This document shows positions 1,301 to 41,675 of a DNA stretch of 44,786 nucleotides, piece by piece. The stretch is from an uncultured Gammaproteobacteria bacterium (GTDB lineage: Bacteria; Patescibacteriota; Patescibacteriia; UBA1558; S5-K13), in NCBI GenBank assembly GCA_964634645.1, contig CAZWKI010000004.1:1-44786 (forward strand), written 5' to 3'. The position numbers and the translations under genes are program-made. The notes below the pieces were generated by a model. It did no database searches. It was not told where the DNA came from and saw nothing but the letters and a program-made list of their open reading frames with translations. The first letter of the stretch is position 1, and each line of letters begins with the position of its first letter.

Positions 1301-1312
1301 TTTTTTAATAAA

Positions 1313-1345: not shown

Positions 1346-1361
1346 TTACCATGTCTATTTT

Positions 1362-2414
1362 TTATAAATTTAAATTTGGATCAGCAGTTATTTTGAAATT
1401 ATTTTTCTTTGCTTTATTTCTACCTGCCAGCCGTAGCCATAGCGAAGGCTGGTTAAAGTAACCAGTAATTGCAATCATTGCAGCATTATCCCCCGTGTGT
1501 TTTAGTTCTGGGAAATATGTTTTTATATTAAGTTTTTTAGCATCAAGTTTAATTCTATTTTTTATAGAACTATTTGCGCTTACTCCACCCCCAAAAATTA
1601 TTGTTTTTACATTATAATCTTTTGCAGAATTAATAATTTTTTTTGAAAGCACATTACAAACAGCAGATTCAAAAGCAAAACAATATTCTTTTATTAATTT
1701 CTGATTTTTTTCTCTTTGTTCATCTCTCCATTTATAAAGCACAGAAGTTTTGAGTCCTGAGAAAGAAAAATTATAATCTTTTGTATTTAACATTGGGCGA
1801 GGGAATTCAAATGTTGCTTTGCCACTAAATTCATTTGCGAGCTTGTTTATTATTGGACCACCAGGATAGCCAAGTCCAAGAATTTTTGCAACTTTGTCAA
1901 ATGCTTCACCAACCGCGTCATCAATTGTGGTTCCTAATAATTTATATTTTCCGTAATTTTTCATGAGGAATATTTGTGTATGCCCGCCTGAGATTACTAC
2001 CGCAAGAGCTGGAAAAATATTTTTTTTATCAAATAGTTCAGGGTAAGTGAGCCAGTTGCTATAAATATGAGCCTCTATATGATTTATAGGAATTAATGGT
2101 TTTTTGTAAATAAATGATAATGTTTTTCCAAGTTCTAATCCTATGACTAAAGACGTAATAAGTCCTGGACCATATGTGACTGCAATTAAATCAACATCAG
2201 AAGCAATATCAACATCTAATTCCTTTAACAATGGAAAAAAATTCTCAGCATGGTGTCTTGCTGCGATCTCAGGAACTATTCCACCATATTGTTTATGAAT
2301 TTCTACTTGTGAAGAGATAAGATTTTTTAGAATTTTTATTTCATTATTCTTATTTATCTCAATAAGTGATAATGCGCTTTCATCACAAGAGGACTCTATG
2401 CCTAAAATTCTCAT
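1362..2414 (-). CDS. tsaD: tRNA N6-adenosine threonylcarbamoyltransferase TsaD (Kae1/Gcp)
   Basis: MRILGIESSCDESA N-terminus, HIEAHI metal-binding block and GGVSAN motif. About 350 aa. Confidence 0.9.
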   Translation of the reverse strand: MRILGIESSCDESALSLIEINKNNEIKILKNLISSQVEIHKQYGGIVPEIAARHHAENFFPLLKELDVDIASDVDLIAVTYGPGLITSLVIGLELGKTLSFIYKKPLIPINHIEAHIYSNWLTYPELFDKKNIFPALAVVISGGHTQIFLMKNYGKYKLLGTTIDDAVGEAFDKVAKILGLGYPGGPIINKLANEFSGKATFEFPRPMLNTKDYNFSFSGLKTSVLYKWRDEQREKNQKLIKEYCFAFESAVCNVLSKKIINSAKDYNVKTIIFGGGVSANSSIKNRIKLDAKKLNIKTYFPELKHTGDNAAMIAITGYFNQPSLWLRLAGRNKAKKNNFKITADPNLNL

Positions 2415-2530
2415 TATTTTTTATTTATTATTTATAATTTTCAATTTATTTATTATTTATTTATTTTGTTATTTAAATAATTAAATAGTAAATTGAAAAT
2501 CAATTGAAATTTGAAAATTGAAAATAGTAA

Positions 2531-29416: not shown

Positions 29417-30427
29417 ATGGATAATATGATTATCAAAAGAAAAGACTTAATGAAAAAAATAGAGATTGGAAGGCCACATCTGGTACTACTTGGTGCTGGT
29501 GCAAGTAGAGCAGCATTTCCAAACGGAGATAAAAATGGAATTCAATTACCCCTAATGAATGATCTGTTTAATATTATTGATTTAGAATTTTTAATAGAAA
29601 AATATAACATCGACGTTCAAAATGATAATTTTGAAGAGTTCTTTAGTAATTTATATGAGCGTGAAGATAATAAAATAATTGCTAATGAGGTAGAAAAGGA
29701 AATTTTTAATTTTTTTAAAAAATTGGAGCTGCCAGAAGAACCAACTATATATGATTATTTAGTATTATCTCTAAGGAAAAAAGATGTTATAGCGACTTTT
29801 AATTGGGATCCATTTTTATGGTTAGCTGCTAGAAGAAATTATGGCGTTGTTGATTTGCCGCACCTAATTTTTTTACATGGGAATGTAGTGGTTGGATATT
29901 GCCATAATTGTAAAATAAAGGGCCAAATCAATTATGAATGCCCACAATGTGGTCAATTATATACCCCATCTCATCTTTTGTATCCGGTTAAGAAAAAAGA
30001 CTATGACTCTGATCCGGCTATCGCTGGAGAGTGGACTATGATAAAAGAATATATGAAACATGCATATATATTTTCAATCTTTGGTTATAGTGCTCCAACA
30101 ACAGATATAGAAGCAATGAATATTTTTAAAACTGCATGGGGAGGAACGGGCAATAGAAATTTTGAACAGATAGAATTTATCCATAAACCCAATAGTAGCG
30201 AAGATGATGTTATTAATCCCTGGAAAGATTTTATTCATTCTCATCATTATGATATTACAGATGATTTCTTTAAATCTATAATGAGTAGATATCCAAGAAG
30301 AACTTGCGATGCTTTTTGGGCAGCCACTATGGAAGTAAGATTCGTTGAAAATAATTACCCACCAAAAAATGTTGATTTAATAACTTTGCAAAATTGGTTT
30401 AGAAAATTTAAAGAATACGAGAATTAA
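29417..30427 (+). CDS. SIR2-family (sirtuin-like) NAD-binding protein with Cys4 zinc ribbon
   Basis: The motifs LLGAGASRAAF (GAGxS), ATFNWDP (TxNxD-like), FLHGN (catalytic His) and CHNC-x14-CPQC (Zn ribbon) are followed by IFGYSAPTTD. Their order and spacing match the sirtuin/SIR2_2 fold. Confidence 0.7.
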   Translation: MDNMIIKRKDLMKKIEIGRPHLVLLGAGASRAAFPNGDKNGIQLPLMNDLFNIIDLEFLIEKYNIDVQNDNFEEFFSNLYEREDNKIIANEVEKEIFNFFKKLELPEEPTIYDYLVLSLRKKDVIATFNWDPFLWLAARRNYGVVDLPHLIFLHGNVVVGYCHNCKIKGQINYECPQCGQLYTPSHLLYPVKKKDYDSDPAIAGEWTMIKEYMKHAYIFSIFGYSAPTTDIEAMNIFKTAWGGTGNRNFEQIEFIHKPNSSEDDVINPWKDFIHSHHYDITDDFFKSIMSRYPRRTCDAFWAATMEVRFVENNYPPKNVDLITLQNWFRKFKEYEN

Positions 30428-31000
30428 ATGATTAATAATGACATAAAATATAAATTTTTTTTGATTAGTCATCATGATAATAAACCCCATTTAATTTTTA
30501 CTATTAAGTTTGATAAAGATAATGTTTATTTTATTAATTCGGGATTCATAAAAAATTTTAAAACTAAGATTAGTTATCATACGCCTAGACTACCTAGCAA
30601 CAAATCTCAAGTACATTTCAAAGTAAACGATAGACGTATTAATGACGCTGATTTATGTTGTCCAGCGAATGAAATAAAGGGTGTGCGATATTTTGGTGGT
30701 AGTGGTACCCCATTAGATCAATTGATAAACTTACCAATTTTTAAAAAAGAAAAGAGGGGCGAAAAATGTTTTATCTTTGATAGTAGAAAATTACGCATGA
30801 GTCATTTATCAAGCATACAATGGTCATGGTTCTTTGTAGAGCCAGATCAAGAAGAATCATTATATAAACACCCTATTATAGATAATGGTGACAGTGAATT
30901 TTCAGAAAGTATGCATATTCAACTTATCAAAGAAACCATCCCCTGGGTTGGTATAGAATATATTAGAATAAGAGAAGAAAACCCCATATGGTATAAGTAA
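30428..31000 (+). CDS. Hypothetical protein translationally coupled to the SIR2-like gene
   Basis: The ATG directly abuts the SIR2 stop codon (TAAATG at 30425-30430). The protein is 190 aa with no TM segment and no motif I recognise. The pair shares the terminator at 31035-31066. Confidence 0.5.
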   Translation: MINNDIKYKFFLISHHDNKPHLIFTIKFDKDNVYFINSGFIKNFKTKISYHTPRLPSNKSQVHFKVNDRRINDADLCCPANEIKGVRYFGGSGTPLDQLINLPIFKKEKRGEKCFIFDSRKLRMSHLSSIQWSWFFVEPDQEESLYKHPIIDNGDSEFSESMHIQLIKETIPWVGIEYIRIREENPIWYK

Positions 31001-31034: not shown

Positions 31035-31066
31035 TAAAACTCTCGGAAATGAGTTTTTTTTGTTTT
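31035..31066 (+). terminator. Intrinsic terminator closing the SIR2 two-gene operon
   Basis: Stem aaaactc(31036-31042)/gagtttt(31051-31057) followed by a long T-run. Confidence 0.55.
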
Positions 31067-31132: not shown

Positions 31133-31549
31133 ATGGAAAAACGGATCACAGAAGATTTTGTAAAAAATGCAATAATAAAATGGCTTTCTGCAAATGGTTG
31201 GGGATATTTTCATTTTGGTGGTTTACATGACCATGGAGTTGATATCAAGGCGAAGCGTCATGGATATTCTAGATATTTTTTTATAGAAACAAAGGGAGAT
31301 GGAAGTAGGAGAGAAATGAATGAAAATTATTTTATTTATTCTCTTGGCCAGATTATTACAAGAATTAAAGATTCTAAAACAACAAGAAATTATTATGCTC
31401 TTGGATTACCAGAAAGTATATCAAAAATAGCAATTAGAAGAATTCCATGGCAAGTATCAAAAAAACTTTTACTTTTTATTCTTTCAGTAAATAAACAAGG
31501 TAAGGTTCAACAATATAGTTGGCAAGATCTAAAAAATTTACAAGAATAG
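31133..31549 (+). CDS. Small PD-(D/E)xK-fold nuclease-like protein
   Basis: HGVDIKAKRHGYSRYFFIETKG gives a D...ExK arrangement after an alpha-helical N-terminus, like Hjc, Mrr and YraN-type restriction-endonuclease folds. Confidence 0.45.
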   Translation: MEKRITEDFVKNAIIKWLSANGWGYFHFGGLHDHGVDIKAKRHGYSRYFFIETKGDGSRREMNENYFIYSLGQIITRIKDSKTTRNYYALGLPESISKIAIRRIPWQVSKKLLLFILSVNKQGKVQQYSWQDLKNLQE

Positions 31550-31576
31550 ATTAGTTTTTTATAAATATTATATATA

Positions 31577-33205
31577 ATGTCTATCTCTAAAGAATTATCT
31601 TATTTATTAGGTTTAATGGTTGGTAGGGGCCATATCTTTTCTAATAGCAACATATTAGCTATTGAGTTTTCTCACACAAATGAATTTTCTTATGGTATCG
31701 CTCATTGCCCAACATGTGGTTATTTAGCTACTAAACAGGGTGATGGTTTAATATGTAAAAATAAAAATTGTAAAAAATCAGTTAATTCAAATAATAGAAA
31801 AATTTATAACCAACCCTTGTCAACAGTATCATCTTTAAAGAATGTAATTATACCCTTTTTATCTAATTCTATTGAGGCAGACTATGACATTTCCGGTAAT
31901 AATGCTTTAACGCTTTTGATAATAGATTTTCATAAAAATAAAAAGGATTTCGACAATATAAAAACTTATTTAAACAATGAGTCTAGTTTTGACAGTTTTC
32001 ACATTCCAGACATTATTAAAAAATCTGACGAGTATTTAAAAATAGAATTTATCAATGGCTTATTAGATACAGCCGGGTTTCCATCTCCTGGTGGTTGGTT
32101 AAATCGTGACGGTAAAAATGGTCATGGTCGTATGAGAGTTTATTTTCAATTTGTAAGAAATTGGTATTTGCCCGTTGAAGTAGACAATTTTCTTAGAAAA
32201 GAATTTTCTTTACCTATTCATACTATTGATTGGGGTCATCCAAATATTCGAGATGCAAACATGGAAGATTATTTTAATGCTAGGCCAACTAGCTGGAGCA
32301 GAGAACATCAGGTAAAATTTTTTCCAGAGTATTATAAAACATTTCATTTTAGAATTTCTTATAAACAAGAATTATTTAAAGAACTAATTACTCATAATGA
32401 AAAAGTGATTTTTACATCCCGAGATGATTGGTTTCCTCCTAGCTCTATTGGAATTAAAAAAATTAAGGCATATCATCCAGGAGAAGAAGATGTAAGAATC
32501 CCAGAACCTGCAAGGAAACACTTTAATGCGTTTTGGCAGATTAATTTAGCCATGGGTTGTGAATATATAACTGGTCTAGTTGATAAAGCAAAAAATAAAG
32601 AGGCTTTTATGCTGACGGGAGAAGATAAAAAGATTGATATTGAAAAGATCAAGAAGTTATTTGATATACAAAGTACGAAAATGCAGAAAGAAATTTTTGC
32701 AAAATATGAATCTGTGGAGAAAAAACAATCATTGAAACAATGTTTTGTAAAAAATGAAAAGGAAAAACAGCTATATCTACCATTAACAGAGTATTTAAAA
32801 ATATATATAAAAGAACACTATGATGAGGAATCTGACGTTTTTGATACGTCAGCTAATAACTTAAACTTATTTTTAAAAAACAAAAATAAAGAACTCTTTG
32901 GTGTATTTGATTATTGTGAAAAATTTAGAATTAAACCAGATGTAGTAGGTTTTTTAGTTAACTCCAAAAAAATTATTTTCGTTGAGGCAAAAATAATTGC
33001 GCTTGATTTAAAGTCTCTTGGGCAATTAATAGGCTATTGTTTTGTAGCTAAGCCCGAAGAAGCAATTCTTGTTTCATCTCAGCGACCGTCAATCTCACTG
33101 ATTAAAATTTTGAAAGCAAGACCAGATTTATTGGAATATGATGATGGTAAGAAAATTAAGCTAGGTGTCTGGGAGAACAACAAGATTTCTTTAATAGAAT
33201 TATAA
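31577..33205 (+). CDS. Multidomain protein: LAGLIDADG-like double motif with inserted zinc ribbon, plus C-terminal NucS/RecB-like PD-(D/E)xK nuclease domain
   Basis: YLLGLMVGRGHI (degenerate first LAGLIDADG motif; compare I-DmoI YLLGLIIGDGG) and FINGLLDTAGF (second motif). Zinc ribbon CPTCG...CKNKNC. The C-terminal KPDVVGF...IFVEAK...GQLIGY gives D, ExK and QxxxY motifs. Confidence 0.5.
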   Translation: MSISKELSYLLGLMVGRGHIFSNSNILAIEFSHTNEFSYGIAHCPTCGYLATKQGDGLICKNKNCKKSVNSNNRKIYNQPLSTVSSLKNVIIPFLSNSIEADYDISGNNALTLLIIDFHKNKKDFDNIKTYLNNESSFDSFHIPDIIKKSDEYLKIEFINGLLDTAGFPSPGGWLNRDGKNGHGRMRVYFQFVRNWYLPVEVDNFLRKEFSLPIHTIDWGHPNIRDANMEDYFNARPTSWSREHQVKFFPEYYKTFHFRISYKQELFKELITHNEKVIFTSRDDWFPPSSIGIKKIKAYHPGEEDVRIPEPARKHFNAFWQINLAMGCEYITGLVDKAKNKEAFMLTGEDKKIDIEKIKKLFDIQSTKMQKEIFAKYESVEKKQSLKQCFVKNEKEKQLYLPLTEYLKIYIKEHYDEESDVFDTSANNLNLFLKNKNKELFGVFDYCEKFRIKPDVVGFLVNSKKIIFVEAKIIALDLKSLGQLIGYCFVAKPEEAILVSSQRPSISLIKILKARPDLLEYDDGKKIKLGVWENNKISLIEL

Positions 33206-33209
33206 AAAT

Positions 33210-33713
33210 ATGGATAAAAAAATGTTATCTTTATCGATTAAAAAATGGCTTGGGAAATTTTTAGAACAAAAATATTCCCAAGACTATGATATTATCGATG
33301 TCATTATCCCAGAATCTAATTTATCTAAACTTCCAATATCATCAATTAAATCTTGTGAAAATTATTCATCTTGGGAATTTAAACCAGATGTTCTTGGGAT
33401 ATTAAAAAATAAAAATAACTCAAAAATAGAGTTAGTTTTAGTAAATAGGTCTACTAGTTCTTTGAGCCTTAAGGAAATAGGTGAAATATATTGTTATTCA
33501 AAACTAGTAAATGCAAAGATATCATTTTTGATATCAGCAAATGGTGTGTCCAATGAAGTTAATATTTTATTAGTTGATGAAAAAATAAGAAATAAACTAC
33601 TTAACTATTCCTTGGACAATGAAATTATAATTTGTTCATGGGATAAAAATAAAGAAGGTATAAATGAAGATTTAGTCATTCCTCTAGATAAAAAAGGATT
33701 TATATCTTTGTGA
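33210..33713 (+). CDS. Paralogue of the C-terminal nuclease domain of the preceding gene with a degenerate active site
   Basis: KKWLGKFLEQKYSQDYDIIDV...FKPDVLGIL...LVLVNRS...GEIYCY aligns by eye with EYLKIYIKEHYDEESDVFDT...IKPDVVGFL...IFVEAKI...GQLIGY. The ExK residues are replaced (N-R-S). Confidence 0.45.
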   Translation: MDKKMLSLSIKKWLGKFLEQKYSQDYDIIDVIIPESNLSKLPISSIKSCENYSSWEFKPDVLGILKNKNNSKIELVLVNRSTSSLSLKEIGEIYCYSKLVNAKISFLISANGVSNEVNILLVDEKIRNKLLNYSLDNEIIICSWDKNKEGINEDLVIPLDKKGFISL

Positions 33714-33714
33714 T

Positions 33715-34524
33715 TTATTTTCGTTTCCAATATATACAAATATATTCGTGAACTTTATTAAATCTGAATACATAAGGATAGCCCAATGTTTTCATATTGT
33801 TGTATTCTTTTTGTCTATCCCAAATTACATACTCTTCTAATTCAAATCCGATTTCTCTCATTATTCTTGTTTGATCTTCATGAAAAGGATAAAACTTATC
33901 TTTTTTTCTTATATCCATTACAACACTGCAGCATCTTTTATTTGGTTTTAATGCTCTATATACCCCCCTATAAATATTTTTTAAATCTTCTAAAAAATCT
34001 TCGTAACTAACCGTATTACCAATGTCCTTTTTTGAACCAGAATAATTTTTTTTATTTTTATTGTCCGCGGTTCTTTTCATATTTAATATATCCCAATATG
34101 GTGGAGACGTAACGACCAAATCAACTGAGTTGTCTTTAATATATTTATTTAAATTTCTAGCATCGTCATTATATATTTCTGGCTGAAAAAAATCTTTCCT
34201 TTTTTTACTAAAGAGATCTTCTTGTATTATTTCAACTCTTTTTTTTGCTATTTTACAATATTCTTTGTTTAAGTCTATTCCAATGCCTCTCTTGCCTAAT
34301 TTATAGGCAGCTTTAAGTGTTGACCCTATTCCTAAAAAAGGATCTAATATTATTTCACCAGGATTTTTTGTATATATGTTGATCAATTTTTCCGCTAATT
34401 GCTCTGGGAACATTGCCGGATGTTTAAGCTTCCTCTCTTCTGAAGTTTTATTTATTTCTCTCCAAATAGTAAACGAGTTTTGCAACCATTCTTTCCCAGA
34501 AAAATTATTCATTCTTTCTGCCAT
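33715..34524 (-). CDS. N4/N6 DNA methyltransferase (N6_N4_Mtase family) with SAM-binding block before the SPPY block
   Basis: HPAMFPEQLAEKLI and LDPFLGIGST (SAM-binding) are in the N-terminal half. DLVVTSPPY (catalytic motif IV) is in the C-terminal half. Confidence 0.8.
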   Translation of the reverse strand: MAERMNNFSGKEWLQNSFTIWREINKTSEERKLKHPAMFPEQLAEKLINIYTKNPGEIILDPFLGIGSTLKAAYKLGKRGIGIDLNKEYCKIAKKRVEIIQEDLFSKKRKDFFQPEIYNDDARNLNKYIKDNSVDLVVTSPPYWDILNMKRTADNKNKKNYSGSKKDIGNTVSYEDFLEDLKNIYRGVYRALKPNKRCCSVVMDIRKKDKFYPFHEDQTRIMREIGFELEEYVIWDRQKEYNNMKTLGYPYVFRFNKVHEYICIYWKRK

Positions 34525-34528
34525 AAAG

Positions 34529-35566
34529 TTATTTTGTTACTTTTACTAAAAATAATATTTCATTTGTTTTTGTTTTAGATCCGTCTTGATTTATCGCTCT
34601 ATATCTTTTATGTTCTTTATTAAAAATTATAACCTTGCCCCTCTTTGATAAGATTTTTTTTATTTTTTCTAATGGTATTATACCCTCATTATTATAACTT
34701 AGAATAATAAATTTAGTTTTTGCTTTTTGGATTAGGTTATCAAGTGCATTACACGCTTCATTTTTCATTGAGTATTTTGATTTTTGATGTTCATATGGTC
34801 TCATACCAGACAATCCATAAATACTTGGTTTTTTGTCAAACCACCCTTCGGCAATTAACTCCAAAAAGAAGTAATTTGACGCAAACTGTCTAGAATTATA
34901 TGGTGGATCTAAATACAATATATCAGATTTAACTTTCGTAATTATATCGTTAGCATCACACTTGAAAGATTTATTTTTATTTCTACTAGAAATAATTTCT
35001 GGAACGCTAAGTCTCATTTTTTTAAGAGCTCTGTCGTCCCATTTTTTTAAAAAAGCTGCATAAGTTCCAGTTACATTACTTACTAGATTAATAGCCTCTA
35101 ATAATGATGTCAATAAATAATAATATTCTCCATCACTTATCAATTCATTTCTTTTCCACATGTGAATTTGTTTTCTTATAGAGTCCACTTTCTGAGCATT
35201 TTCTATAGATAAGTATTTACGTTTGTTATTGTTTATTGGAGAATAATTTTTTGTTATAAATCCTATTGACGGTTTTATGCTATTTAAAAATTGTATGATA
35301 TCATCCGTTGTTTTTACGTTAATAGTCTTTTTTAATTTTGTAAATTTAGGTTTATGATTCAATTGAATGCTACAGTGAGCAATTGCATGCGCAAATTCTA
35401 AGAAATCATTAGAATAAACTGTATACCCCAATCTTTTAAAGTGTTTTCCAACTGCTGACGTTCCACTAAAAATATCAAAAAAAATAGACCCAGATTTTAG
35501 ATTCAGGGTATTAACGGCATCTTCTATATAATTTAAGAGTTTGGTTTTGCATCCGTAATATCGCAT
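34529..35566 (-). CDS. D12-class (Dam-like) N6-adenine DNA methyltransferase
   Basis: MRYYGCKTKLL N-terminus, FFDIFSGTSAVG (motif I) and LYLDPPYNSRQF (motif IV DPPY). Confidence 0.75.
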   Translation of the reverse strand: MRYYGCKTKLLNYIEDAVNTLNLKSGSIFFDIFSGTSAVGKHFKRLGYTVYSNDFLEFAHAIAHCSIQLNHKPKFTKLKKTINVKTTDDIIQFLNSIKPSIGFITKNYSPINNNKRKYLSIENAQKVDSIRKQIHMWKRNELISDGEYYYLLTSLLEAINLVSNVTGTYAAFLKKWDDRALKKMRLSVPEIISSRNKNKSFKCDANDIITKVKSDILYLDPPYNSRQFASNYFFLELIAEGWFDKKPSIYGLSGMRPYEHQKSKYSMKNEACNALDNLIQKAKTKFIILSYNNEGIIPLEKIKKILSKRGKVIIFNKEHKRYRAINQDGSKTKTNEILFLVKVTK

Positions 35567-35668: not shown

Positions 35669-36988
35669 TTAATTATCTAATGTTATCCTTCTATCTCTCA
35701 ACACCAGCCTATTTTTCAAATTACTCATTAATTCTCTCTTCTCAAGTATTGTTCCTTGTTGAAGAATGTATTTAGCATAATCTTTCATGTTAATTTGTTT
35801 TTGATTTTCATGGTCATTTATTTTTACTCCAAGCACTCCAGTTCTAAAGCTATGATATCTTTCAACTTCATGTTGTACTTTTTCTTTCATTCCTAATTTA
35901 TCTAAGTCTAGTGTATCTATCATTTCGGTTATTTGTTCTATTAACCTATCTTCTCTAATGCTTTCTGATTTACAATTTAAATCTTTACCTCTTGTACAAT
36001 TGTAATAAATATAACGGTGAGTATTACCGTTTTTTTGTTTCTTAAATTTTTCAACTGCTGTAATACCACTTCCACATAATCCACAGGTCATTAGCTTAGT
36101 GAATGCAAATTCTCTATCTTGTGTTTTACCAACATACGCATCAGTAATTTTTTCTTGTACTTTATCAAATAGCTCTTTTGATATTATTGGTTCATGATTT
36201 CCTTTATACCATGTACCACTACTTCTTGGATATTCAAATGTTCCGGTATAGAAACTATTATGAAGTATCATATAAATATGACTTAGTGTTACATAATATC
36301 CATTTTTTGATTTAAATTTTAAATTATCCTTTAACCATCTATATAGTTTCCTACCACTATAACTTTCATAAGCAACTTTTTCAAACATTTGTTTTATTAT
36401 GGGTGCTCTTATTGGATCTACAAGTATCTGACATTTTTTATCAACTCTATTTTGGTTCAAGTATCCTATTGGAGCGGGTCCTGGCCACAATCCCATTTCT
36501 ACTCTTGTCTTAAGACCACGTTTTACATTTACTCCTTTATTATCGTTTTCTAGTTTTGCTTGTGATCCTAAAATCATAAGAAGAAACTTTTCATTTGGAT
36601 TGTTAGTAAATTTCTGACTGTATGTCCTTATCTCTACTAACTTACCTTGATCCATTAAATCTACTAGTGCTCCAAGATCTCCTGCATTTCTACTTAACCT
36701 ATCAGGTGCCCAACAAAGTATTCCTTGAAACAATCCATTTCTTAGATCATTTATTAGTGTATTAAATACATTTCTCTGCCCAGTGTCTTTAGCACTGTGT
36801 GATTCACGTCTAATTTCTACAATGTTTAGATTTTCTTTTCTTGCTAGTTCTAGCATTTCTTTGATTTGGCTATCTATGGATAGAACCTGCTTTTCTTCTG
36901 ACTCTGTTGATTTTCTTGCATAGAGGCAATACTTCAGAGGAATGGTCTCTAATGCCTCTGAAACACCCTCATTTTGTTCTATTTTCAT
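35669..36988 (-). CDS. Large serine recombinase
   Basis: YCLYARKSTESEEKQ contains the catalytic Ser. It is followed by the resolvase domain, the recombinase domain and the zinc ribbon CGLCGSGITAV...YYNCTRG. Confidence 0.9.
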   Translation of the reverse strand: MKIEQNEGVSEALETIPLKYCLYARKSTESEEKQVLSIDSQIKEMLELARKENLNIVEIRRESHSAKDTGQRNVFNTLINDLRNGLFQGILCWAPDRLSRNAGDLGALVDLMDQGKLVEIRTYSQKFTNNPNEKFLLMILGSQAKLENDNKGVNVKRGLKTRVEMGLWPGPAPIGYLNQNRVDKKCQILVDPIRAPIIKQMFEKVAYESYSGRKLYRWLKDNLKFKSKNGYYVTLSHIYMILHNSFYTGTFEYPRSSGTWYKGNHEPIISKELFDKVQEKITDAYVGKTQDREFAFTKLMTCGLCGSGITAVEKFKKQKNGNTHRYIYYNCTRGKDLNCKSESIREDRLIEQITEMIDTLDLDKLGMKEKVQHEVERYHSFRTGVLGVKINDHENQKQINMKDYAKYILQQGTILEKRELMSNLKNRLVLRDRRITLDN

Positions 36989-37113: not shown

Positions 37114-37273
37114 TGCGAAACAATAAAGGTGAATATGAGGAATTTTGAACAAAAATAATACTTTTTGTATTTTGTTCCATTTGTGACAAGGTTCGGACAT
37201 TCCGATCAAAACACAAATGGGACTCCTCACGGATACCTTTGTTGTTTCGCAGGTCGGGTGTCCGTTTTTGTTT
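37114..37273 (+). ncRNA. Candidate structured leader RNA/sRNA, copy 2
   Basis: TATAAT at 37103-37108. Helices are tgcgaaacaa(37114-37123)/ttgtttcgca(37242-37251) and ccatttgtg(37177-37185)/cacaaatgg(37212-37220). Terminator acggatacc(37229-37237)/ggtgtccgt(37257-37265) is followed by a T-run at 37266-37273. Confidence 0.55.
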
Positions 37274-37288: not shown

Positions 37289-38020
37289 ATGAAGATAAAA
37301 ATTGCAAACTGGAATATGGCTTATTGGCAACACAAACAATTGCATGATGAATCATGGGATTTTTTCTTAAATAGAATAGACGCAGATATTTTTCTTTTTC
37401 AGGAAGCAAAACCAAATAAAGTCATAAAACATGAAAAAGATAATTTAGTTTGGGATGAGATAGGGGGTAAGCGTGATTGGGGTTCCGGAATATATAGTCC
37501 AAAATGTAAGTTAGTGGAAGAAAAAATAGAAACAAAATTTAATGGGGTATTTTCTATTGCTAATACAGAAATTGGAAATAAAAAATTAACGCTAATTTCA
37601 TTATATGGACTTATGACAAGTAGTGGTCCAGAAAAAGGATATTCAATTCCAAACCTTCATAGAATGTTATCAGACCTAACTCCACTTTTTAATGGTCGTA
37701 TTGATGGCAAAAGAAATATTATTATGTCTGGAGATTTAAATGCTAGTACTCAGTTTGATAAAATACAAAATAATAATTCTCATAAGATTCTCTTTGATAG
37801 AATTGATGACTTTGGATTAAAAGACGTCTATCAACTTTCGGGAAATAAAAGCCACATTCAAACTCTACGTTATGCTCGCAGTGAAACGCCTTGGCAAAAT
37901 GATTATTTTTTTATAAGCAAACCTATTTCAAATAAGTTTATAAAATATGAAATTATTGATAACGAAGAAGTAAGAAAATATAGTGATCATAATATTGTCA
38001 CAATTGAAGTAGATTTATAA
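37289..38020 (+). CDS. Endonuclease/exonuclease/phosphatase (EEP, DNase I-like) family protein
   Basis: IANWNM (N-terminal Asn), LFQEA (catalytic Glu), SGDLNAS (DxN) and YSDHNIV (DH), in the canonical EEP order. Confidence 0.8.
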   Translation: MKIKIANWNMAYWQHKQLHDESWDFFLNRIDADIFLFQEAKPNKVIKHEKDNLVWDEIGGKRDWGSGIYSPKCKLVEEKIETKFNGVFSIANTEIGNKKLTLISLYGLMTSSGPEKGYSIPNLHRMLSDLTPLFNGRIDGKRNIIMSGDLNASTQFDKIQNNNSHKILFDRIDDFGLKDVYQLSGNKSHIQTLRYARSETPWQNDYFFISKPISNKFIKYEIIDNEEVRKYSDHNIVTIEVDL

Positions 38021-38039: not shown

Positions 38040-38507
38040 TTAATTACTAATATCTTCTATATTAGTTTTTTTATTTACAGAATAGTTGATTTTAGATTCT
38101 CTAGCTATTCTTAGAAGTTCTTCTAATTTTTCTATGGCTCTATCTGATTTTTCATCTTCTTTTCTTTTTCTTTCTCTTTCTGCTTCCCTCTCTAATTCTC
38201 TTATTTTAGAACTTTGCATGCTATTCTTTCTATATTTGAGATAATTATTCTCTAACCAAAATTTAATAGATTTAAAATCACTATTTTTAATATTATTGAT
38301 TAAACCAGACTCAGCTAAATCGTTTATTATGGGTATACTTATTTTTCTTGCTACATTACATCTTTTAGAAAAGTTTTTATCATATTGTTTCCACCTGTAA
38401 TAAGTACTTCTTTGTATAGCTAGTTTTGTACACGCCACTTGAACAATTGGATTTGATTCTAGTTCCTCTATAAACTTTTTTTTAATTTGAGCTTGATTGG
38501 GAATCAT
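38040..38507 (-). CDS. HTH-domain protein of phage/plasmid type (possible small-terminase-like or directionality factor)
   Basis: VACTKLAIQRSTYYRWKQ is a helix-turn-helix-like segment, and the C-terminus is a charged coiled coil. The gene overlaps the ParB-methylase gene end by 26 nt. Confidence 0.35.
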   Translation of the reverse strand: MIPNQAQIKKKFIEELESNPIVQVACTKLAIQRSTYYRWKQYDKNFSKRCNVARKISIPIINDLAESGLINNIKNSDFKSIKFWLENNYLKYRKNSMQSSKIRELEREAERERKRKEDEKSDRAIEKLEELLRIARESKINYSVNKKTNIEDISN

Positions 38508-39849
38508 ATAATTTTACCCTTCTCCCACAGAATGCCTTTTCCCATCTATTAATTATTACTTCTGTATAAATAGGAGATTTTTCCATTATGAAACATCTCC
38601 TACCTAACTTATTTGCAGCAATCAATGTACTACCGCTCCCACCGAATGGCTCAAGAACTAGTTGATCTCTTTTGGTAAGCACTTTAATATATGGAATTAA
38701 TATTTCTATTGGTTTTGTTCCAAATATTATTCCTTGTCCAGATGACTTCTCATCGGATGCGTGGTACTCAATAAAGTCCGTGGGGCAGTACTTCTTTCCC
38801 TTTTCGTAGCTTTCCCATTGAGGTTTCCCTGCAATTGCAAAAAGTGCTGTTTCATATTCATTTTGAAGACCCTCACCCTCATCTTCTAAATTATATTCAA
38901 TGTCAGTATCAGAAGAACCAACCATCGCTATGTCATACTTATTAAAGAATTTATACTTAGAAGAAAATCCTTGCATCCTATTGTTTAAATGCCATACTAA
39001 CATATTCTTTATTTTCCAGTATTTTGCCATCTCATTCCATATTGTCATAATGTTTTTCCAATTCTCATAAACTATAATGCTAAAGTTTTCATTAGCAACT
39101 TTACTGACATTTGCCATCCATAATTCTGTAAAGTTTTCAGGTAATGATTCTGTTTCAAGGTATCTTCTATTTTTCTTCGCTCCGAATCCAACAGTTGCCT
39201 CTCCGTGCCTAGTCTTACCTTGAAGGTAGTTTAAAATATAAGGTGGATCTGTTAGACAAAAATCTGCTTTTTCATTTCCCATTAGTTTCATCATATCTTC
39301 TTCAATAGTGGAATCTCCACACATAATTTTTGATCCACCCAGATCATATATATCTCCTTTTTGAACAGTTATTTCTGTTATATTTAATTTAGCTAATTCT
39401 TTTTTTAAATCAAATATTTCTTCTTGACTAGTATCTATGTCAAATATTTTATCCATGTCGATACTATCAAATCCTATGTTTGTAAGAAGACTTTTATCAA
39501 ACTTAGACAACAGGTCAAAATCAAATTCACCTTGATTCTTGTTTAATCTAATATTTAACTCCATTTCTTTTTCTATGTCTGGGATATTAACGTATACAAC
39601 TGGAACAGTTTTAATTCCCAATTCCAGCGCTACAGCGTGGCGAAAATGTCCACCGATCAAGACATTGTGCCTTTCAGGAGAGGAGTTGGCTATGAATGGA
39701 TCTACTAGCCCGAATCTAGTAATACTTTCCTTTAGTTGATCAAATTGAGTCTTGTCCCACTTACGTGGGTTTTCTGTATTGAGTTTTAGTTCTTCAATAG
39801 GAACTTGTGTTATCTGGATTTTATCCAGAATATTTTTGTCTTCCGACAT
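38482..39849 (-). CDS. ParB-like nuclease domain fused to an N4/N6 DNA methyltransferase
   Basis: N-terminal NPRKWD...LIGGHFRH (ParB/Srx fold). This is followed by FCLTDPPY (motif IV) and LEPFGGSGSTLIAA (motif I), in classical beta-class order. Confidence 0.85.
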   Translation of the reverse strand: MSEDKNILDKIQITQVPIEELKLNTENPRKWDKTQFDQLKESITRFGLVDPFIANSSPERHNVLIGGHFRHAVALELGIKTVPVVYVNIPDIEKEMELNIRLNKNQGEFDFDLLSKFDKSLLTNIGFDSIDMDKIFDIDTSQEEIFDLKKELAKLNITEITVQKGDIYDLGGSKIMCGDSTIEEDMMKLMGNEKADFCLTDPPYILNYLQGKTRHGEATVGFGAKKNRRYLETESLPENFTELWMANVSKVANENFSIIVYENWKNIMTIWNEMAKYWKIKNMLVWHLNNRMQGFSSKYKFFNKYDIAMVGSSDTDIEYNLEDEGEGLQNEYETALFAIAGKPQWESYEKGKKYCPTDFIEYHASDEKSSGQGIIFGTKPIEILIPYIKVLTKRDQLVLEPFGGSGSTLIAANKLGRRCFIMEKSPIYTEVIINRWEKAFCGRRVKLYDSQSSSN

Positions 39850-40164: not shown

Positions 40165-41049
40165 ATGAATCATAACATTTCTAATTCTTTTATAGATCAA
40201 GTGTCAAGGGGACCATCTTCTACAAAGACATCTCAGGTTTCTAATATTCAAACACATATTCAGAGTATTTTTGGATCAGGTTATCATACATTTCTTCAAG
40301 GATCTTATAAAAATGATACAGCGATATTGGATATTAATGATGTCGATATTGTGGTTATAAGGCTAAATACTTATAGTGGCTTATATTCTCCTTTTGCACA
40401 GGGCAATCCCTTAGTTCATTGGAATATTATATTTTCAGAAATAGAAGAAAAACTAAAACATCAAAATCTCTATGATTGGAGTATAGAGAGAGGAAATAAA
40501 TGTATAACAGTAACGACTTCTAATTTTAAAGCCGACATTGTCCCATCCGTTCAAATAGACAATGATTATAGTGTTGATCCTATAGCGATTTTTTCATTTA
40601 AAGATGGTATGGAAAAGATTAATTATCCGCGAACTCATTACAATAATGGAGTAAATAAAAATCAGCTAACAAACGGGAATTATAAATTTATAGTTAGAAT
40701 GTTAAAAAGCTGGGCAAAGAATTATTTTAATGATAAAAATATTATATCTTCTTATCAAATCGAATCACTTGTGTATGGGGTAGAAAATAATAGGTTCAAT
40801 AATAATTTAGTTCTCTCATTTATTGATGTATCTAGTCAAATATATAATAAACTTAAGCAAAGAGAATCTATTCCAATTAAAATTTTAAGTGTTTGTGGGT
40901 ATGAAGATATTACAACTAATTGGCCATTAGAATATAGAAAAACAGTAGTCAATCAATTAGAAAACTCTATTGCTTTGACAGTCAAGGCATATAAAGCAAC
41001 TGATTCAACAATTGCAAACGATTTATTTAAAAAAGCATTTAATTTATAA
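40165..41049 (+). CDS. SMODS/CD-NTase-like nucleotidyltransferase (CBASS cyclase candidate)
   Basis: LQGSYKNDTAILDINDVDIVV gives the GS...DxD motif, and FKADIVPS supplies the third acidic residue. The following helical region (FIVRMLKSW) fits minimal SMODS-type nucleotidyltransferases. Confidence 0.6.
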   Translation: MNHNISNSFIDQVSRGPSSTKTSQVSNIQTHIQSIFGSGYHTFLQGSYKNDTAILDINDVDIVVIRLNTYSGLYSPFAQGNPLVHWNIIFSEIEEKLKHQNLYDWSIERGNKCITVTTSNFKADIVPSVQIDNDYSVDPIAIFSFKDGMEKINYPRTHYNNGVNKNQLTNGNYKFIVRMLKSWAKNYFNDKNIISSYQIESLVYGVENNRFNNNLVLSFIDVSSQIYNKLKQRESIPIKILSVCGYEDITTNWPLEYRKTVVNQLENSIALTVKAYKATDSTIANDLFKKAFNL

Positions 41050-41051: not shown

Positions 41052-41675
41052 ATGAAGAGCCACAATCTCTCTATAAAATTTTATATCTTTTTTATTTTAG
41101 TTTTCTTATACCCAGCTATTTATTTATCAGGCGTGACCTTAAGTTTAATGAATCTTATGTCTATAAAAAACGCCTATATTAATAATTTAATAAATTTAGG
41201 TGTTTTAGAATTTTTAACTCCAGTAGCATTATTATTATTGTTTTTTTATATAACCAATCATTGGCTTTGGAAATTAATTAATAAAATACTCGGCATCCCG
41301 ATAATTTCAGGAAGATATAAAGGTGTTTTAAAAAGCACTTATGCTGAAAATAGCTCTCATGATATTATTTTAGAAATAGATCAAACATTAACTCAAATTG
41401 AAGTTTATTTTTATACAGAAAAATCTAAATCGCATAGTATAGTTAGCGGTCTATTTAAAAATGATCAGGGCGCTTGGTCTATGTATTATATATATGAAAA
41501 TAAAACTCGTGTAATGGATGATAATTCTGACATGAAAGATCATGAGGGAGTCTCTGTAGTTGATATTAATGAGAGATCTTTAAGTGGGTATTATTTTAAT
41601 GATTTAAGAAATAGGGGCCGATGTGGAAATTTTAACGTAGAATTTGTCAGCAAGAGATTGCTTAAAAGATATTAA
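41052..41675 (+). CDS. Two-TM, beta-strand-rich effector (S-2TMBeta / Cap15-like)
   Basis: Two N-terminal TM helices are followed by a beta-rich C-terminal domain (ISGRYKGVLKSTY...ILEIDQTLTQIEVYFY...SGYYFND...GNFNVEFV). The start is 2 nt after the cyclase stop. Confidence 0.5.
   Translation: MKSHNLSIKFYIFFILVFLYPAIYLSGVTLSLMNLMSIKNAYINNLINLGVLEFLTPVALLLLFFYITNHWLWKLINKILGIPIISGRYKGVLKSTYAENSSHDIILEIDQTLTQIEVYFYTEKSKSHSIVSGLFKNDQGAWSMYYIYENKTRVMDDNSDMKDHEGVSVVDINERSLSGYYFNDLRNRGRCGNFNVEFVSKRLLKRY

What the first reader, a model, noticed from the sequence alone, without database searches (positions are those of the whole stretch)
31133..35566. Tightly packed five-gene cassette: three-gene nuclease operon convergent, with 1 nt between stops, on two DNA methyltransferases
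The + strand genes 31133-31549, 31577-33205 and 33210-33713 have gaps of 27 and 4 nt. Their last stop (33711-33713) is separated by a single nucleotide from the stop of the - strand methylase pair (33715-34524 and 34529-35566, gap 4 nt). No terminator fits between them, which suggests a co-inherited unit.

A Dam-like D12 enzyme paired with an N4/N6-family enzyme recalls the DpnII/MboI-type and type IIS arrangements, which use two methylases. The nuclease side, however, is not a recognisable type II enzyme. It comprises three proteins carrying three PD-(D/E)xK-type domains (one inactivated) plus a LAGLIDADG-like module.

This could be an atypical multi-subunit restriction system, or a methylation-linked defence system of a type I cannot name.
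Basis: partly seen in the sequence, partly recalled or inferred. Interest (0 to 1): 0.75.

Follow-up and report, generated by a model that had tools for sequence, protein, structure and literature searches.

The report
Restriction system with a dead homing-endonuclease domain
The cassette is a previously unannotated, widely transferred four-gene restriction-modification module whose nuclease appears to read DNA with an inactivated homing-endonuclease (LAGLIDADG) domain; the fifth gene is a separate small nuclease that tags along with many kinds of restriction systems.

Summary
In detail: all five ORFs, the 27/4/4-nt gaps and the single nucleotide between the convergent stops are as described.

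The conserved unit has four genes, not five.
- **B (542 aa):** a double LAGLIDADG fold lacking both catalytic acids, with an inserted Cys4 ribbon, a helical linker and a canonical PD-ExK nuclease domain.
- **C (167 aa):** a paralogue of B's nuclease domain with ExK replaced by N-R-S.
- **M2:** a methyltransferase with an invariant SPPY motif (N4-cytosine type).
- **Second methyltransferase:** always adenine-type but interchangeable (D12 here; gamma-class or MT-A70 elsewhere).

In 24 non-redundant loci from many bacterial and archaeal phyla, C follows B in 24/24 and convergent M2 is present in 21/21. B and M2 co-diverge (r = 0.83). A split form also occurs on a Lactiplantibacillus plasmid and in phages: methyltransferase(s), then the N-domain protein, then one canonical small nuclease.

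A (138 aa) is absent from all other B loci. It is a separate PD-(D/E)xK protein found at the end of Type I, II and III restriction operons.

No curated family or solved structure matches B or C by sequence.

Best reading: a heteromeric Type IIS-like restriction-modification system, organised like BspD6I or BtsI, with a new recognition module.

The parts
31577..33205 (+). B: large restriction subunit (542 aa). It has a degenerate double-LAGLIDADG domain, a helical linker and a PD-(D/E)xK nuclease domain.
   Evidence: Family of at least 330 homologues, all unannotated, and 462 representative clusters. AF2 model pLDDT 85.7. Foldseek top hits are LAGLIDADG enzymes plus NucS. No Pfam, NCBIfam, PADLOC, PHROG or PDB sequence hit.
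31577..32416 (+). B residues ~1-280: single-chain double LAGLIDADG fold, the presumed DNA-recognition module. Motif 1 is YLLGLMVG-R17-GH and motif 2 is NGLLD164-T-A166-G. Both canonical catalytic acids are missing.
   Evidence: Foldseek probability 0.99-1.0 to E-DreI, PI-SceI, I-DmoI, I-SceI and WhiA. hhalign aligns R17 with I-DmoI D21. R17, D164 and G167 are invariant and position 166 is A or S.
31694..31792 (+). Cys4 zinc ribbon (C44, C47, C60, C65) inserted in the first LAGLIDADG half. It is absent from split-type relatives.
   Evidence: Weak PF14952 hit. Invariant cysteines. Profile hits to eL43 and Rpb9 ribbons. Absent in L030-L037.
32222..32335 (+). Invariant motifs TIDWGHPNIRD ... SREHQVKFFPEYY in the second LAGLIDADG half (residues 216-253). 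Their role is unknown.
   Evidence: Invariant in the 27-sequence alignment. Retained in split-type, plasmid and phage members at 26-37% identity.
32762..33202 (+). B residues 396-542: canonical PD-(D/E)xK nuclease domain (E396, P454-D455, E470-x-K472, G482-Q483).
   Evidence: Invariant residues. Foldseek hit to NucS 2vld. Weak profile hits to EndoMS and NucS.
33210..33713 (+). C: small subunit (167 aa). It is a paralogue of B's nuclease domain with a conserved but non-canonical motif set (PD ... N-R-S ... GE ... NEV) and a C-terminal tail shared with the split-type small subunits.
   Evidence: BLASTP of B 396-536 against C 3-148 gives 25% identity, E 8e-9. Family alignment. Present directly after B in 24/24 non-redundant loci.
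33715..34524 (-). M2: N6_N4-family DNA methyltransferase (269 aa) with the AdoMet motif (DPFLGIGS, residue 61) before the catalytic motif (SPPY, residue 140). It is predicted to be an N4-cytosine methyltransferase.
   Evidence: PF01555 6.5e-37. PADLOC MTase_II 1.5e-51. PDB relatives include N4C enzymes. SPPY is invariant in all full-length orthologues. Convergent on C in 21/21 loci, 61-81% identical, and co-diverges with B at r=0.83.
34529..35566 (-). M1: D12-class adenine-N6 DNA methyltransferase (345 aa, DPPY at residue 220). This is the interchangeable partner methyltransferase.
   Evidence: PF02086 3.5e-32. PADLOC MTase_II 1e-97. Present in 15 loci. Replaced by gamma-class NPPY/F enzymes or MT-A70 (DPPW) in others.
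31133..31549 (+). A: stand-alone PD-(D/E)xK protein (138 aa, XisH-like fold). It is probably co-transcribed here but is not part of the conserved module; it is a companion of many restriction-system types.
   Evidence: Own family of at least 308 homologues. Invariant E7, D37, E52, K54, Q73. AF2 pLDDT 86.7. Foldseek hits to XisH 2inb/2okf and the PaqCI nuclease domain. Absent from all other B loci. Contexts.
35669..36988 (-). Large serine recombinase (439 aa) abutting M1. This is context: a possible vehicle for the cassette.
   Evidence: PF00239, PF07508 and PF13408. NCBIfam CcrB/XisF-like. Serine recombinases also lie next to the module in L013 and L014.

Best explanation
The conserved functional unit is a four-gene Type II restriction-modification module (B, C, M2 and M1) of the heteromeric Type IIS kind.

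Proposed mechanism:
1. B binds an asymmetric DNA site through a double LAGLIDADG domain that has lost both catalytic acids and so acts as a DNA-binding scaffold.
2. B's C-terminal canonical PD-(D/E)xK domain, tethered by a helical linker, cuts DNA.
3. C, a paralogue of that nuclease domain encoded 4 nt downstream, pairs with B as the second half of a nuclease dimer. It probably docks through a C-terminal tail that it shares with the free small subunits of split-type relatives.
4. C lacks the canonical ExK. It is therefore either a non-catalytic partner or activator, or it uses a relocated acidic residue.
5. Host DNA is protected by hemimethylation of each strand. M2 (SPPY) places N4-methylcytosine on one strand and M1 (DPPY) places N6-methyladenine on the other.

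Shown:
- gene content;
- folds, from confident models;
- motif conservation;
- strict co-occurrence and co-divergence;
- horizontal spread.

Inferred:
- DNA recognition by the LAGLIDADG domain;
- B-C pairing;
- the bases methylated;
- the restriction phenotype.

A is a separate PD-(D/E)xK gene that happens to sit in front of this module here, as its relatives sit at the ends of other restriction operons.
For: - **Co-occurrence:** 24/24 non-redundant fused-type loci have C after B. 21/21 have convergent M2, with stops overlapping or within 34 nt in 19/21. B and M2 identities correlate at r=0.83.
- **Phyletic spread typical of mobile R-M:** Patescibacteria, Nanoarchaeota, Thermococci, Actinomycetota, Pseudomonadota, Bacteroidota, Planctomycetota, Elusimicrobiota and others. 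The split form occurs on a 6.5-kb plasmid next to only rep and TA genes, and in phages.
- **Methyltransferase pairing:** every variant pairs one cytosine-type with one adenine-type methyltransferase. The combinations are SPPY with DPPY, NPPY/F or DPPW, or an EcoRI_methylase-C5 fusion. This is the pattern of asymmetric-site Type IIS systems.
- **B's structure:** the model is confident (pLDDT 85.7). Its top 40 Foldseek hits are LAGLIDADG proteins, followed by NucS. The catalytic acids are replaced by R17 and A166.
- **Nuclease domains:** B's nuclease domain keeps invariant E...PD...ExK...Q. C is a paralogue of it (E 8e-9).
- **Split relatives:** in them the N-domain protein and one canonical small nuclease are separate genes, which shows that the two parts work as partners.
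- **Precedent:** the architecture parallels Class III heterodimeric Type IIS enzymes, where a large subunit pairs with a small subunit homologous to its catalytic domain (PMC3017599).
- **Genomic setting:** the cassette lies in a defence island with CBASS and other methyltransferases.
Against: - No biochemical or methylome data exist. The recognition sequence, cleavage position and restriction phenotype are all unknown.
- C lacks four of the five canonical catalytic-site residues (the alpha-1 Glu, the E and K of ExK, and the Q) in all 22 orthologues aligned. A B-C pair has only one canonical active site, so double-strand cleavage is not explained without further assumptions.
- The motifs DWGHPNIRD and REHQxK in the LAGLIDADG domain stay invariant even where the methyltransferase chemistry differs. 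This fits poorly with a purely specificity-determining role and could mark an unrecognised active site.
- LAGLIDADG enzymes usually read 14-40 bp, far longer than typical methyltransferase sites.
- Foldseek E-values are modest (about 2e-3), although probabilities are 0.99-1.0.
- REBASE could not be consulted.
Confidence: 0.72

Rival explanations
1. The module is a nicking restriction system, or one that needs two sites. C is a catalytically dead pseudo-nuclease that only scaffolds or gates B's single active site. The enzyme then either nicks one strand at its site or must bring two B molecules together, as FokI does, to make a double-strand break.
For: C orthologues uniformly replace ExK by N-R-(S/T) and GQL by GE, and they lack the alpha-1 Glu. 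The free small subunit of split-type relatives keeps the canonical D...ExK...Q, which suggests loss of catalysis after duplication. Large subunits of BtsI, BsrDI and BspD6I are natural nickases (PMC3017599).
Against: C is strongly conserved, including C-specific acidic residues (the GE motif about 13 residues after N-R-S, and the NEV motif). These could form a relocated active site of the Cfr10I/NgoMIV type (from my own knowledge of those enzymes). [quoted passage not shown]
Confidence: 0.35
2. This is the first reader's reading: a five-gene unit in which A, B and C are three subunits of one multi-subunit nuclease.
For: In this window A is 27 nt upstream of B on the same strand with no terminator between them. 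A weak hairpin with a T-run separates A from the upstream gene, so A-B-C are probably co-transcribed here. A has a complete PD-(D/E)xK site.
Against: A has no homologue in 35 other B loci, even when searched with a nuclease-domain profile. None of 88 A loci contains B or C. A shows no profile similarity to the B/C/S nuclease domain (hhalign probability 0.2%). A sits at the end of Type I, II and III operons and next to GmrSD elsewhere.
Confidence: 0.06
3. B is an active homing-type endonuclease, or it has a remodelled active site in the LAGLIDADG domain around DWGHPNIRD/REHQxK or R17/H19/D164. The cassette would be mainly a selfish mobile element, with the PD-(D/E)xK domains in auxiliary roles.
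For: B has a LAGLIDADG fold. Invariant His/Asp/Glu/Asn-rich motifs persist across the whole superfamily irrespective of methyltransferase type. The cassette is mobile, with plasmid, phage and serine-recombinase neighbours.
Against: Both canonical metal-binding acids of the LAGLIDADG motifs are replaced (R/K/N and A/S/T) in every member examined. The canonical PD-ExK sites are invariant, which argues that they are the catalytic centres. The obligatory methyltransferase linkage is the signature of R-M, not of homing.
Confidence: 0.07
4. B/C is a modification-dependent (Type IV-like) or repair-type nuclease (NucS-like), and its linkage to the methyltransferases is merely defence-island clustering.
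For: The nuclease domain's nearest solved relative is NucS/EndoMS. The locus lies in a defence island.
Against: Linkage is strict (21/21), with a conserved overlapping convergent junction and co-divergence. It survives transfer to a 6.5-kb plasmid and to phages. A modification-dependent nuclease placed next to active methyltransferases would be self-toxic unless the specificities differed. The patchy phyletic distribution is unlike that of a repair gene.
Confidence: 0.04

Closest known systems
Class III heterodimeric Type IIS restriction enzymes: BstNBI/BspD6I (Nt.BspD6I plus ss.BspD6I), BtsI and BsrDI (PMC3017599)
   Same: A large subunit carries the DNA-recognition module and one PD-(D/E)xK site. 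An adjacent small subunit is homologous to the large subunit's catalytic domain. Methyltransferases cover an asymmetric target. In BtsI and BsrDI the small subunit has a non-canonical motif.
   Different: There is no sequence or fold match to them. The recognition module is a degenerate LAGLIDADG fold, not FokI-like winged helices. C's motif (PD...N-R-S...GE) differs from PD-Xn-E-X12-QR, and C's activity is unknown. A split form also exists in which the recognition protein has no nuclease domain at all.
FokI-type Type IIS enzymes
   Same: Modular architecture: an N-terminal recognition domain, a linker and a C-terminal non-specific PD-(D/E)xK cleavage domain that needs a dimer partner. M1 resembles half of a two-domain FokI-length methyltransferase profile (PADLOC PDLC03287).
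   Different: The dimer partner is a dedicated paralogous protein, not a second copy of the enzyme. The recognition fold is different, and no homology is detectable.
LAGLIDADG homing endonucleases (I-DmoI, I-SceI, PI-SceI) and the degenerate LAGLIDADG protein WhiA
   Same: A single-chain double alpha-beta-beta-alpha-beta-beta-alpha fold with two LAGLIDADG-type helices. As in WhiA, the catalytic acids are missing, which implies a scaffold or DNA-binding role.
   Different: It is not an intron or intein homing enzyme. It is fused to, or partnered with, PD-(D/E)xK nuclease domains and is always linked to DNA methyltransferases. It does not pass the Pfam LAGLIDADG models. It carries extra invariant motifs and a zinc ribbon.
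Engineered fusions of catalytically inactive I-SceI to the restriction enzyme PvuII (PMC3258161)
   Same: The same design principle: a dead LAGLIDADG protein serves as the DNA-binding module and is joined to a PD-(D/E)xK restriction nuclease.
   Different: Those fusions are artificial, use a complete Type IIP enzyme and have an 18-bp target. This one is natural and methyltransferase-linked, presumably has a short site, and has a paralogous partner subunit.
Type IIS systems with one adenine and one cytosine methyltransferase (MboII M1/M2; Alw26I/Eco31I/Esp3I fused m6A-m5C methylases)
   Same: One adenine-type and one cytosine-type methyltransferase act per asymmetric site. The plasmid and phage relatives even use a fused adenine-C5 enzyme.
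   Different: The endonucleases of those systems are unrelated: single-chain, and HNH in the Eco31I group (from my own knowledge).
XisH family (for gene A only)
   Same: Best structural match (2inb, E 2e-4, TM 0.53-0.57). It is a small PD-(D/E)xK-fold protein, and a XisF-like large serine recombinase lies nearby in this window.
   Different: No Pfam XisH hit. Only 5 of 58 A loci have a serine recombinase nearby, against 43 of 58 with restriction-modification genes.

Membership tests
Type II restriction-modification system (generic) | Endonuclease gene(s) adjacent to and co-inherited with cognate DNA methyltransferase gene(s) | tested here: met
   B and C occur with M2 in 21/21 loci and with a second methyltransferase in all loci with enough sequence. 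B and M2 co-diverge at r=0.83.
Type II restriction-modification system (generic) | Methyltransferases carry intact AdoMet-binding and catalytic motifs | tested here: met
   M2 has DPFLGIGS and SPPY. M1 has DPPY. Both pass Pfam thresholds.
Type II restriction-modification system (generic) | Endonuclease with a recognisable catalytic site | tested here: met
   B's C-terminal domain has invariant E396, D455, E470, K472 and Q483.
Type II restriction-modification system (generic) | Site-specific cleavage that is blocked by the cognate methylation; a restriction phenotype | not testable with these tools
   Requires expression, cleavage assays and methylome sequencing.
Class III heterodimeric Type IIS enzymes (BspD6I/BstNBI, BtsI, BsrDI) | Large subunit contains a recognition module plus one catalytic domain | tested here: met
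   AF2 model and Foldseek: LAGLIDADG-fold N-domain plus a NucS-like PD-(D/E)xK C-domain. That the N-domain recognises DNA is an inference.
Class III heterodimeric Type IIS enzymes (BspD6I/BstNBI, BtsI, BsrDI) | Adjacent small subunit is homologous to the large subunit's catalytic domain | tested here: met
   BLASTP E 8e-9 over about 150 residues. The gene lies 4 nt downstream.
Class III heterodimeric Type IIS enzymes (BspD6I/BstNBI, BtsI, BsrDI) | Small subunit carries a functional second active site | tested here: inconclusive
   The canonical ExK, Q and alpha-1 Glu are lost in all C orthologues, but the PD and C-specific acidic residues are conserved.
Class III heterodimeric Type IIS enzymes (BspD6I/BstNBI, BtsI, BsrDI) | Sequence or structural homology to those enzymes (for example a FokI-like recognition domain) | tested here: not met
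   No PDB sequence hit at E<=10 for B or C, although the BspD6I subunits are in PDB. They are absent from the top 50 Foldseek hits. No PADLOC, Pfam or NCBIfam endonuclease model matched.
LAGLIDADG homing endonucleases | Double alpha-beta-beta-alpha-beta-beta-alpha fold with two LAGLIDADG helices | tested here: met
   Foldseek probability 0.99-1.0 to I-DmoI, E-DreI, PI-SceI, I-SceI and WhiA; TM normalised to target 0.45-0.59. Motifs YLLGLxxGRG and NGLLDTAG.
LAGLIDADG homing endonucleases | Acidic metal-binding residue at the end of each LAGLIDADG motif | tested here: not met
   R17 (K or N in distant members) aligns with I-DmoI D21. Position 166 is A, S or T.
LAGLIDADG homing endonucleases | Match to the Pfam LAGLIDADG models | tested here: not met
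   No Pfam hit at E<=0.1 other than a weak zinc-ribbon match.
   No DpnII-family hit for A, B or C. M2 has SPPY and its closest solved relatives include N4-cytosine enzymes. The D12 partner is replaced by other classes in orthologous loci.
PD-(D/E)xK nuclease superfamily (gene A) | Core fold with E...D...ExK catalytic residues | tested here: met
   Invariant E7, D37, E52, K54 and Q73. Foldseek hits to XisH, the PaqCI nuclease domain, tRNA-splicing endonucleases and Hjc.
XisH family (gene A) | Pfam XisH match and functional link to XisF-type recombinases | tested here: not met
   No Pfam hit. A serine recombinase is within 4 kb in only 5 of 58 A loci. The similarity is in fold only.

The most novel reading that the evidence does not exclude
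This is the first natural restriction-enzyme family whose sequence recognition is done by a domesticated, catalytically dead LAGLIDADG homing-endonuclease scaffold. Cleavage is outsourced to a modular PD-(D/E)xK subunit that exists free (split form), fused (B) and as a degenerate paralogue (C). In the strongest version of this reading, C is a pseudo-nuclease that gates a natural strand-specific nickase, and the invariant DWGHPNIRD/REHQxK motifs form a docking or catalytic site not seen in any LAGLIDADG protein. Independently, A-type proteins would be a general accessory layer attached to Type I, II and III restriction operons in Patescibacteria and DPANN archaea.
Probability: 0.45. Interest if true: 0.75.

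Novelty: new variant of a known kind. Interest (0 to 1): 0.58.

Why it matters
Restriction endonucleases are known to use PD-(D/E)xK, HNH, GIY-YIG, PLD and half-pipe folds. To my knowledge, and in the literature searches run here, no natural restriction enzyme built on a LAGLIDADG scaffold has been described.

If confirmed, this family would matter in four ways:
- It would show that homing-endonuclease scaffolds have been recruited into restriction-modification.
- It would be a natural counterpart of engineered fusions of dead meganucleases to restriction nucleases.
- It would offer a naturally modular recognition-plus-cleavage system, in split and fused forms, for making new specificities or nickases.
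- It would put names on hundreds of "hypothetical" genes in Patescibacteria, DPANN archaea, small plasmids and gut phages.

The interchangeable adenine methyltransferase next to a constant cytosine methyltransferase is a clean natural experiment in how the methylation half of an asymmetric-site system can be replaced. The separate finding that A-type nucleases trail restriction operons of every type points to an unstudied accessory function.

Tried and rejected
- **Family scans.** Pfam, NCBIfam, PADLOC and PHROGs scans of A, B and C gave nothing beyond a weak zinc-ribbon hit.
- **PDB sequence searches.** Single-sequence and profile searches found only ribosomal and Rpb9 zinc ribbons, repeat artefacts (designed PPR proteins) and non-significant NucS/EndoMS hits.
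- **A as a distant copy of the B/C nuclease domain.** Rejected: not found by a domain HMM at E<=10, and hhalign probability is 0.2%.
- **A as an XisH-like recombination factor for the neighbouring serine recombinase.** The fold is similar, but only 5 of 58 A loci have such a recombinase, so this is kept only as a minor possibility.
- **Other conserved flanking genes.** None recurs. The occasional neighbours are LexA, an amidase and DUF5655 proteins.
- **att-like direct repeats of the tRNA-Lys 3' end.** None found around the cassette.
- **Promoter scan.** Uninformative in this AT-rich DNA: 47 sites found against 52.6 expected.
- **M1 against PDB sequences.** No hit.
- **Long B-N fusions.** Their N-terminal 800-1000 residues have no Pfam match, and the one contig found is too short for context.
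- **hhalign of B against I-DmoI.** Only motif 1 aligned (probability 23%).
- **Recognition sequence.** Not attempted: 45 kb is too little for motif-avoidance statistics, and REBASE and DefenseFinder were not available.

Full report
**1. The observation.**
- A: 31133-31549 (+, 138 aa)
- B: 31577-33205 (+, 542 aa)
- C: 33210-33713 (+, 167 aa)
- M2: 33715-34524 (-, 269 aa)
- M1: 34529-35566 (-, 345 aa)

The raw sequence at the junction reads TTG TGA t TTA TTT. One nucleotide therefore separates C's stop from the complement of M2's stop. No terminator-like hairpin is predicted there. Base composition does not set the cassette apart from its flanks.

**2. The methyltransferases.** M2 passes PF01555 (6.5e-37) and M1 passes PF02086 (3.5e-32). 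Both hit PADLOC Type II methyltransferase models, at 1.5e-51 and 1e-97.
- M2 has its AdoMet motif (DPFLGIGS, residue 61) before its catalytic motif (SPPY, residue 140). This is the reverse of the order in the Pfam model.
- M2's solved relatives include N4-cytosine enzymes.
- M1 has DPPY.
- By the established motif rule (SPP[Y/F] for N4-cytosine; [D/N]PP[Y/F/W] for N6-adenine), M2 is predicted to make m4C and M1 to make m6A. This is an inference.

**3. The three + strand proteins are unannotated.** A, B and C hit nothing in Pfam, NCBIfam, PADLOC, PHROGs or PDB sequences, apart from a weak zinc-ribbon match in B.
- B's C-terminal ~150 residues are paralogous to C (25% identity, E 8e-9).
- B has at least 330 homologues of about 545 aa, all called hypothetical. 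They come from Patescibacteria, Nanoarchaeota, Polynucleobacter, Empedobacter, Firestonebacteria and others.
- An exhaustive profile search finds 462 representative clusters.

**4. What travels together.** I fetched 37 B-containing loci and analysed them in the sandbox. Among 24 non-redundant loci with a full-length B:
- C follows B in 24/24.
- A convergent M2 orthologue is present in 21/21 loci that have room for it.
- The C and M2 stops overlap or lie within 34 nt in 19/21. The two exceptions have an extra gene inserted between them, which in L001 is an MT-A70 methyltransferase.
- M2 is the best-conserved component (61-81% identity to the window's copy). Its divergence tracks B's (r = 0.83).

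The second methyltransferase is always present but is not always homologous:
- D12 in 15 loci;
- gamma-class N6_Mtase/Eco57I-type (NPPY/NPPF) in about 11;
- MT-A70 (DPPW) in L001.

No other flanking gene recurs. A has no homologue in any of these loci, nor do the two genes upstream of A.

**5. A split form.**
- In six distant loci (L030-L037) the order is methyltransferase(s), then a ~310-aa protein equal to B's N-terminal part, then a single ~163-aa protein related to both B's C-domain and C. All are on one strand.
- The same trio occurs on the 6.5-kb Lactiplantibacillus plantarum plasmid p9, beside only replication and toxin-antitoxin genes. It also occurs in two gut phages.
- On the plasmid and in the one phage record examined (PV036447.1), the methyltransferase is a 700-aa fusion of an EcoRI_methylase-type adenine domain and a C5-cytosine domain.
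- Across the whole superfamily, therefore, the nuclease pair is always linked to one adenine-type and one cytosine-type methyltransferase activity. That is what an asymmetric, Type IIS-like target requires.

**6. Structure of B.** The AlphaFold2 model built on a 27-sequence alignment is confident (pLDDT 85.7, pTM 0.72).
- Foldseek against PDB returns almost only LAGLIDADG proteins for the first ~280 residues: E-DreI, PI-SceI, I-DmoI, I-SceI and WhiA. Probabilities are 0.99-1.0, E-values are about 2e-3, and TM normalised to target is 0.45-0.59.
- For the C-domain it returns the NucS nuclease.
- The two LAGLIDADG-type motifs are visible in the sequence: YLLGLxxG-R17-GH and NGLL-D164-T-A166-G.
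Position 166, the equivalent of E117, is A or S.
- In distant members these positions are K or N, and T or A.
- With both metal-binding acids gone, LAGLIDADG-type catalysis is excluded on established mechanism. WhiA is the precedent for a degenerate LAGLIDADG scaffold.
- A Cys4 ribbon (C44, C47, C60, C65) is inserted in the first half. It is absent from the split form.

**7. The nuclease domains.** An alignment of 44 domains shows three states:
- B's C-domain: invariant E...PD...(I/V)ExK...GQLxGY.
- The free small subunit of the split form: canonical D...VExK...QLxGY.
- C: PD is usually kept, but ExK is replaced by N-R-(S/T), GQL by GE(I/M), and the alpha-1 Glu is lost. C also has C-specific conserved acidic residues (GE, NEV).

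C and the free small subunits share a C-terminal tail ending in (I/V/L)xP that B's fused domain lacks. I infer that this tail docks the free subunit on the N-domain. On this view C still occupies the ancestral docking site, while a duplicated copy became fused to B.

**8. Mechanism proposed.**
- The degenerate LAGLIDADG domain recognises an asymmetric site.
- B's tethered PD-ExK domain and C form the nuclease dimer.
- M2 and M1 each methylate one strand.

This is the organisation of the Class III heterodimeric Type IIS enzymes BspD6I/BstNBI, BtsI and BsrDI. In those enzymes the small subunit is homologous to the large subunit's catalytic domain, and in BtsI and BsrDI it has a non-canonical motif (PMC3017599). 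Membership of that family is not claimed, because no sequence or fold match to those proteins exists.

Whether C is catalytic is open. If it is not, the enzyme nicks, or it needs two B molecules to make a double-strand break.

The invariance of DWGHPNIRD and REHQxK across members with different methyltransferase chemistry is unexplained.

**9. Gene A.**
- A belongs to a separate family of at least 308 proteins of about 140 aa in Patescibacteria and Nanoarchaeota, 57-77% identical to it. Some members have an N-terminal HARE-HTH domain.
- Its catalytic set E7/D37/E52-x-K54/Q73 is invariant.
- Its model (pLDDT 86.7) best matches XisH-family proteins and the PaqCI nuclease domain.
- In 88 A loci none has B or C.
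- A is typically the last gene, on the same strand, of Type III Mod-Res operons, Type I hsd operons, an EcoRV-like system, or D12/GmrSD/N6_N4 clusters.
- 43 of 58 non-redundant loci have a restriction-modification gene within 4 kb, against 5 of 58 with a serine recombinase.
- HARE-HTH domains are proposed readers of modified DNA (PMC11037411).
- A is therefore a general satellite of restriction systems. It is probably co-transcribed with B and C in this window, but it is not a subunit specific to them.

**10. Context.**
- Upstream lie housekeeping genes and then tRNA-Arg and tRNA-Lys.
- From 29417 onward the window is a defence island. In order it holds an unannotated gene pair, this cassette, a large serine recombinase, an EEP-family nuclease, an HTH gene plus a ParB-N6_N4 methyltransferase, a CBASS pair (SMODS and Cap15), DUF3644, and a second large serine recombinase.
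- Serine recombinases also lie beside the module in two other loci.

**11. Novelty and verdict.**
- The kind of system (Type II restriction-modification) is known. The endonuclease family is unannotated, and its recognition module is a fold not reported for restriction enzymes in the literature I could search.
- The nearest thing described is an engineered fusion of inactive I-SceI to PvuII (PMC3258161).
- I rate it a new variant of a known kind, of moderate-to-good interest.
- The main uncertainties are the absence of any experimental data and my inability to consult REBASE.

Noticed in passing
window 31133-31549; loci L038-L125: A-type proteins are ~140-aa PD-(D/E)xK proteins with an XisH-like fold, sometimes fused to HARE-HTH. 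They sit as the last same-strand gene of Type I, Type II (EcoRV-like), Type III and GmrSD-containing clusters in Patescibacteria and Nanoarchaeota. 43 of 58 non-redundant loci have a restriction-modification gene within 4 kb. This may be an unstudied accessory layer of restriction systems.
   Followed up: yes
window 29417-30427 and 30428-31000: Two abutting + strand genes (336 aa with an LLGAGASRAAFP motif reminiscent of SIR2-like proteins; 190 aa) lie between tRNA-Lys and the cassette. Neither has a Pfam, NCBIfam, PADLOC or PHROG hit or a homologue in the other loci. They may be another uncharacterised defence pair.
   Followed up: no
window 40165-41049 and 41052-41675: A CBASS-like pair: a SMODS-domain cyclase (PF18144) followed 2 nt later by a Cap15 cyclic-dinucleotide-receptor effector (PF18153).
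   Followed up: partly
window 38040-38507 and 38482-39849 (- strand): An HTH protein overlaps a ParB_N-N6_N4 DNA methyltransferase (455 aa). The same ParB-methyltransferase type is a frequent neighbour of A-family genes in other loci (cluster c3).
   Followed up: partly
window 37289-38020: A stand-alone endonuclease/exonuclease/phosphatase-family protein (243 aa; weak PF03372 and Xth-like hits) lies just beyond the serine recombinase.
   Followed up: no
window 42870-44507, and 35669-36988: Two large serine recombinases lie about 6 kb apart and are related to each other (phmmer 3.5e-75). GC rises to 0.448 at 43-44 kb against about 0.28 elsewhere. The defence island may be a composite of serine-recombinase elements. 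No att sites were identified.
   Followed up: partly
window 37114-37141 / 37224-37251: A 28-nt inverted repeat (79% complementary, arms 82 nt apart) lies in the intergenic region between the serine recombinase and the EEP nuclease gene. It could be a recombination or regulatory site.
   Followed up: no
P0295, P0297, P0299, P0300; L126 275-3424: Proteins of 991-1299 aa carry a complete split-type B N-domain (YALGLVVARG ... IIWGHPNIRD ... KEHQLKVF ... HPEE) at their C-terminus, after 800-1000 residues with no Pfam match. This is a third architecture of the family with unknown partners.
   Followed up: partly
L127 (NZ_CP060181.1) 690-4316; L128 (PV036447.1) 622-4165: A minimal three-gene version of the system occurs on a 6.5-kb L. 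plantarum plasmid and in gut phage genomes: a fused EcoRI_methylase-type and C5 methyltransferase, a 290-aa N-domain protein and a 165-aa canonical small nuclease. The plasmid host is culturable and would suit experiments.
   Followed up: yes
L003/L016 6914-7936; L034 9430-10440; L001 14840-15748; L008 6822-7697: DUF5655-containing proteins (about 290-340 aa, one with a faint NucS_C hit) lie next to or near B modules in several unrelated loci. In L003 one occupies the position immediately upstream of B that A occupies in this window. This may be another class of restriction-system satellite.
   Followed up: partly
window 32222-32335 (B residues 216-253): The motifs D(W/F)GHPN(I/F)R(D/N) and (R/K)EHQxK are invariant from the fused CPR members to the plasmid and phage split members, whose methyltransferases differ. 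They are too conserved to be simple specificity determinants, and their role (structural, subunit docking or catalytic) is unexplained.
   Followed up: partly
window 31037-31065: A weak hairpin (AAACTC...GAGTTT) followed by a T-run lies after the 190-aa gene and before A. This suggests that A-B-C form their own transcription unit.
   Followed up: no
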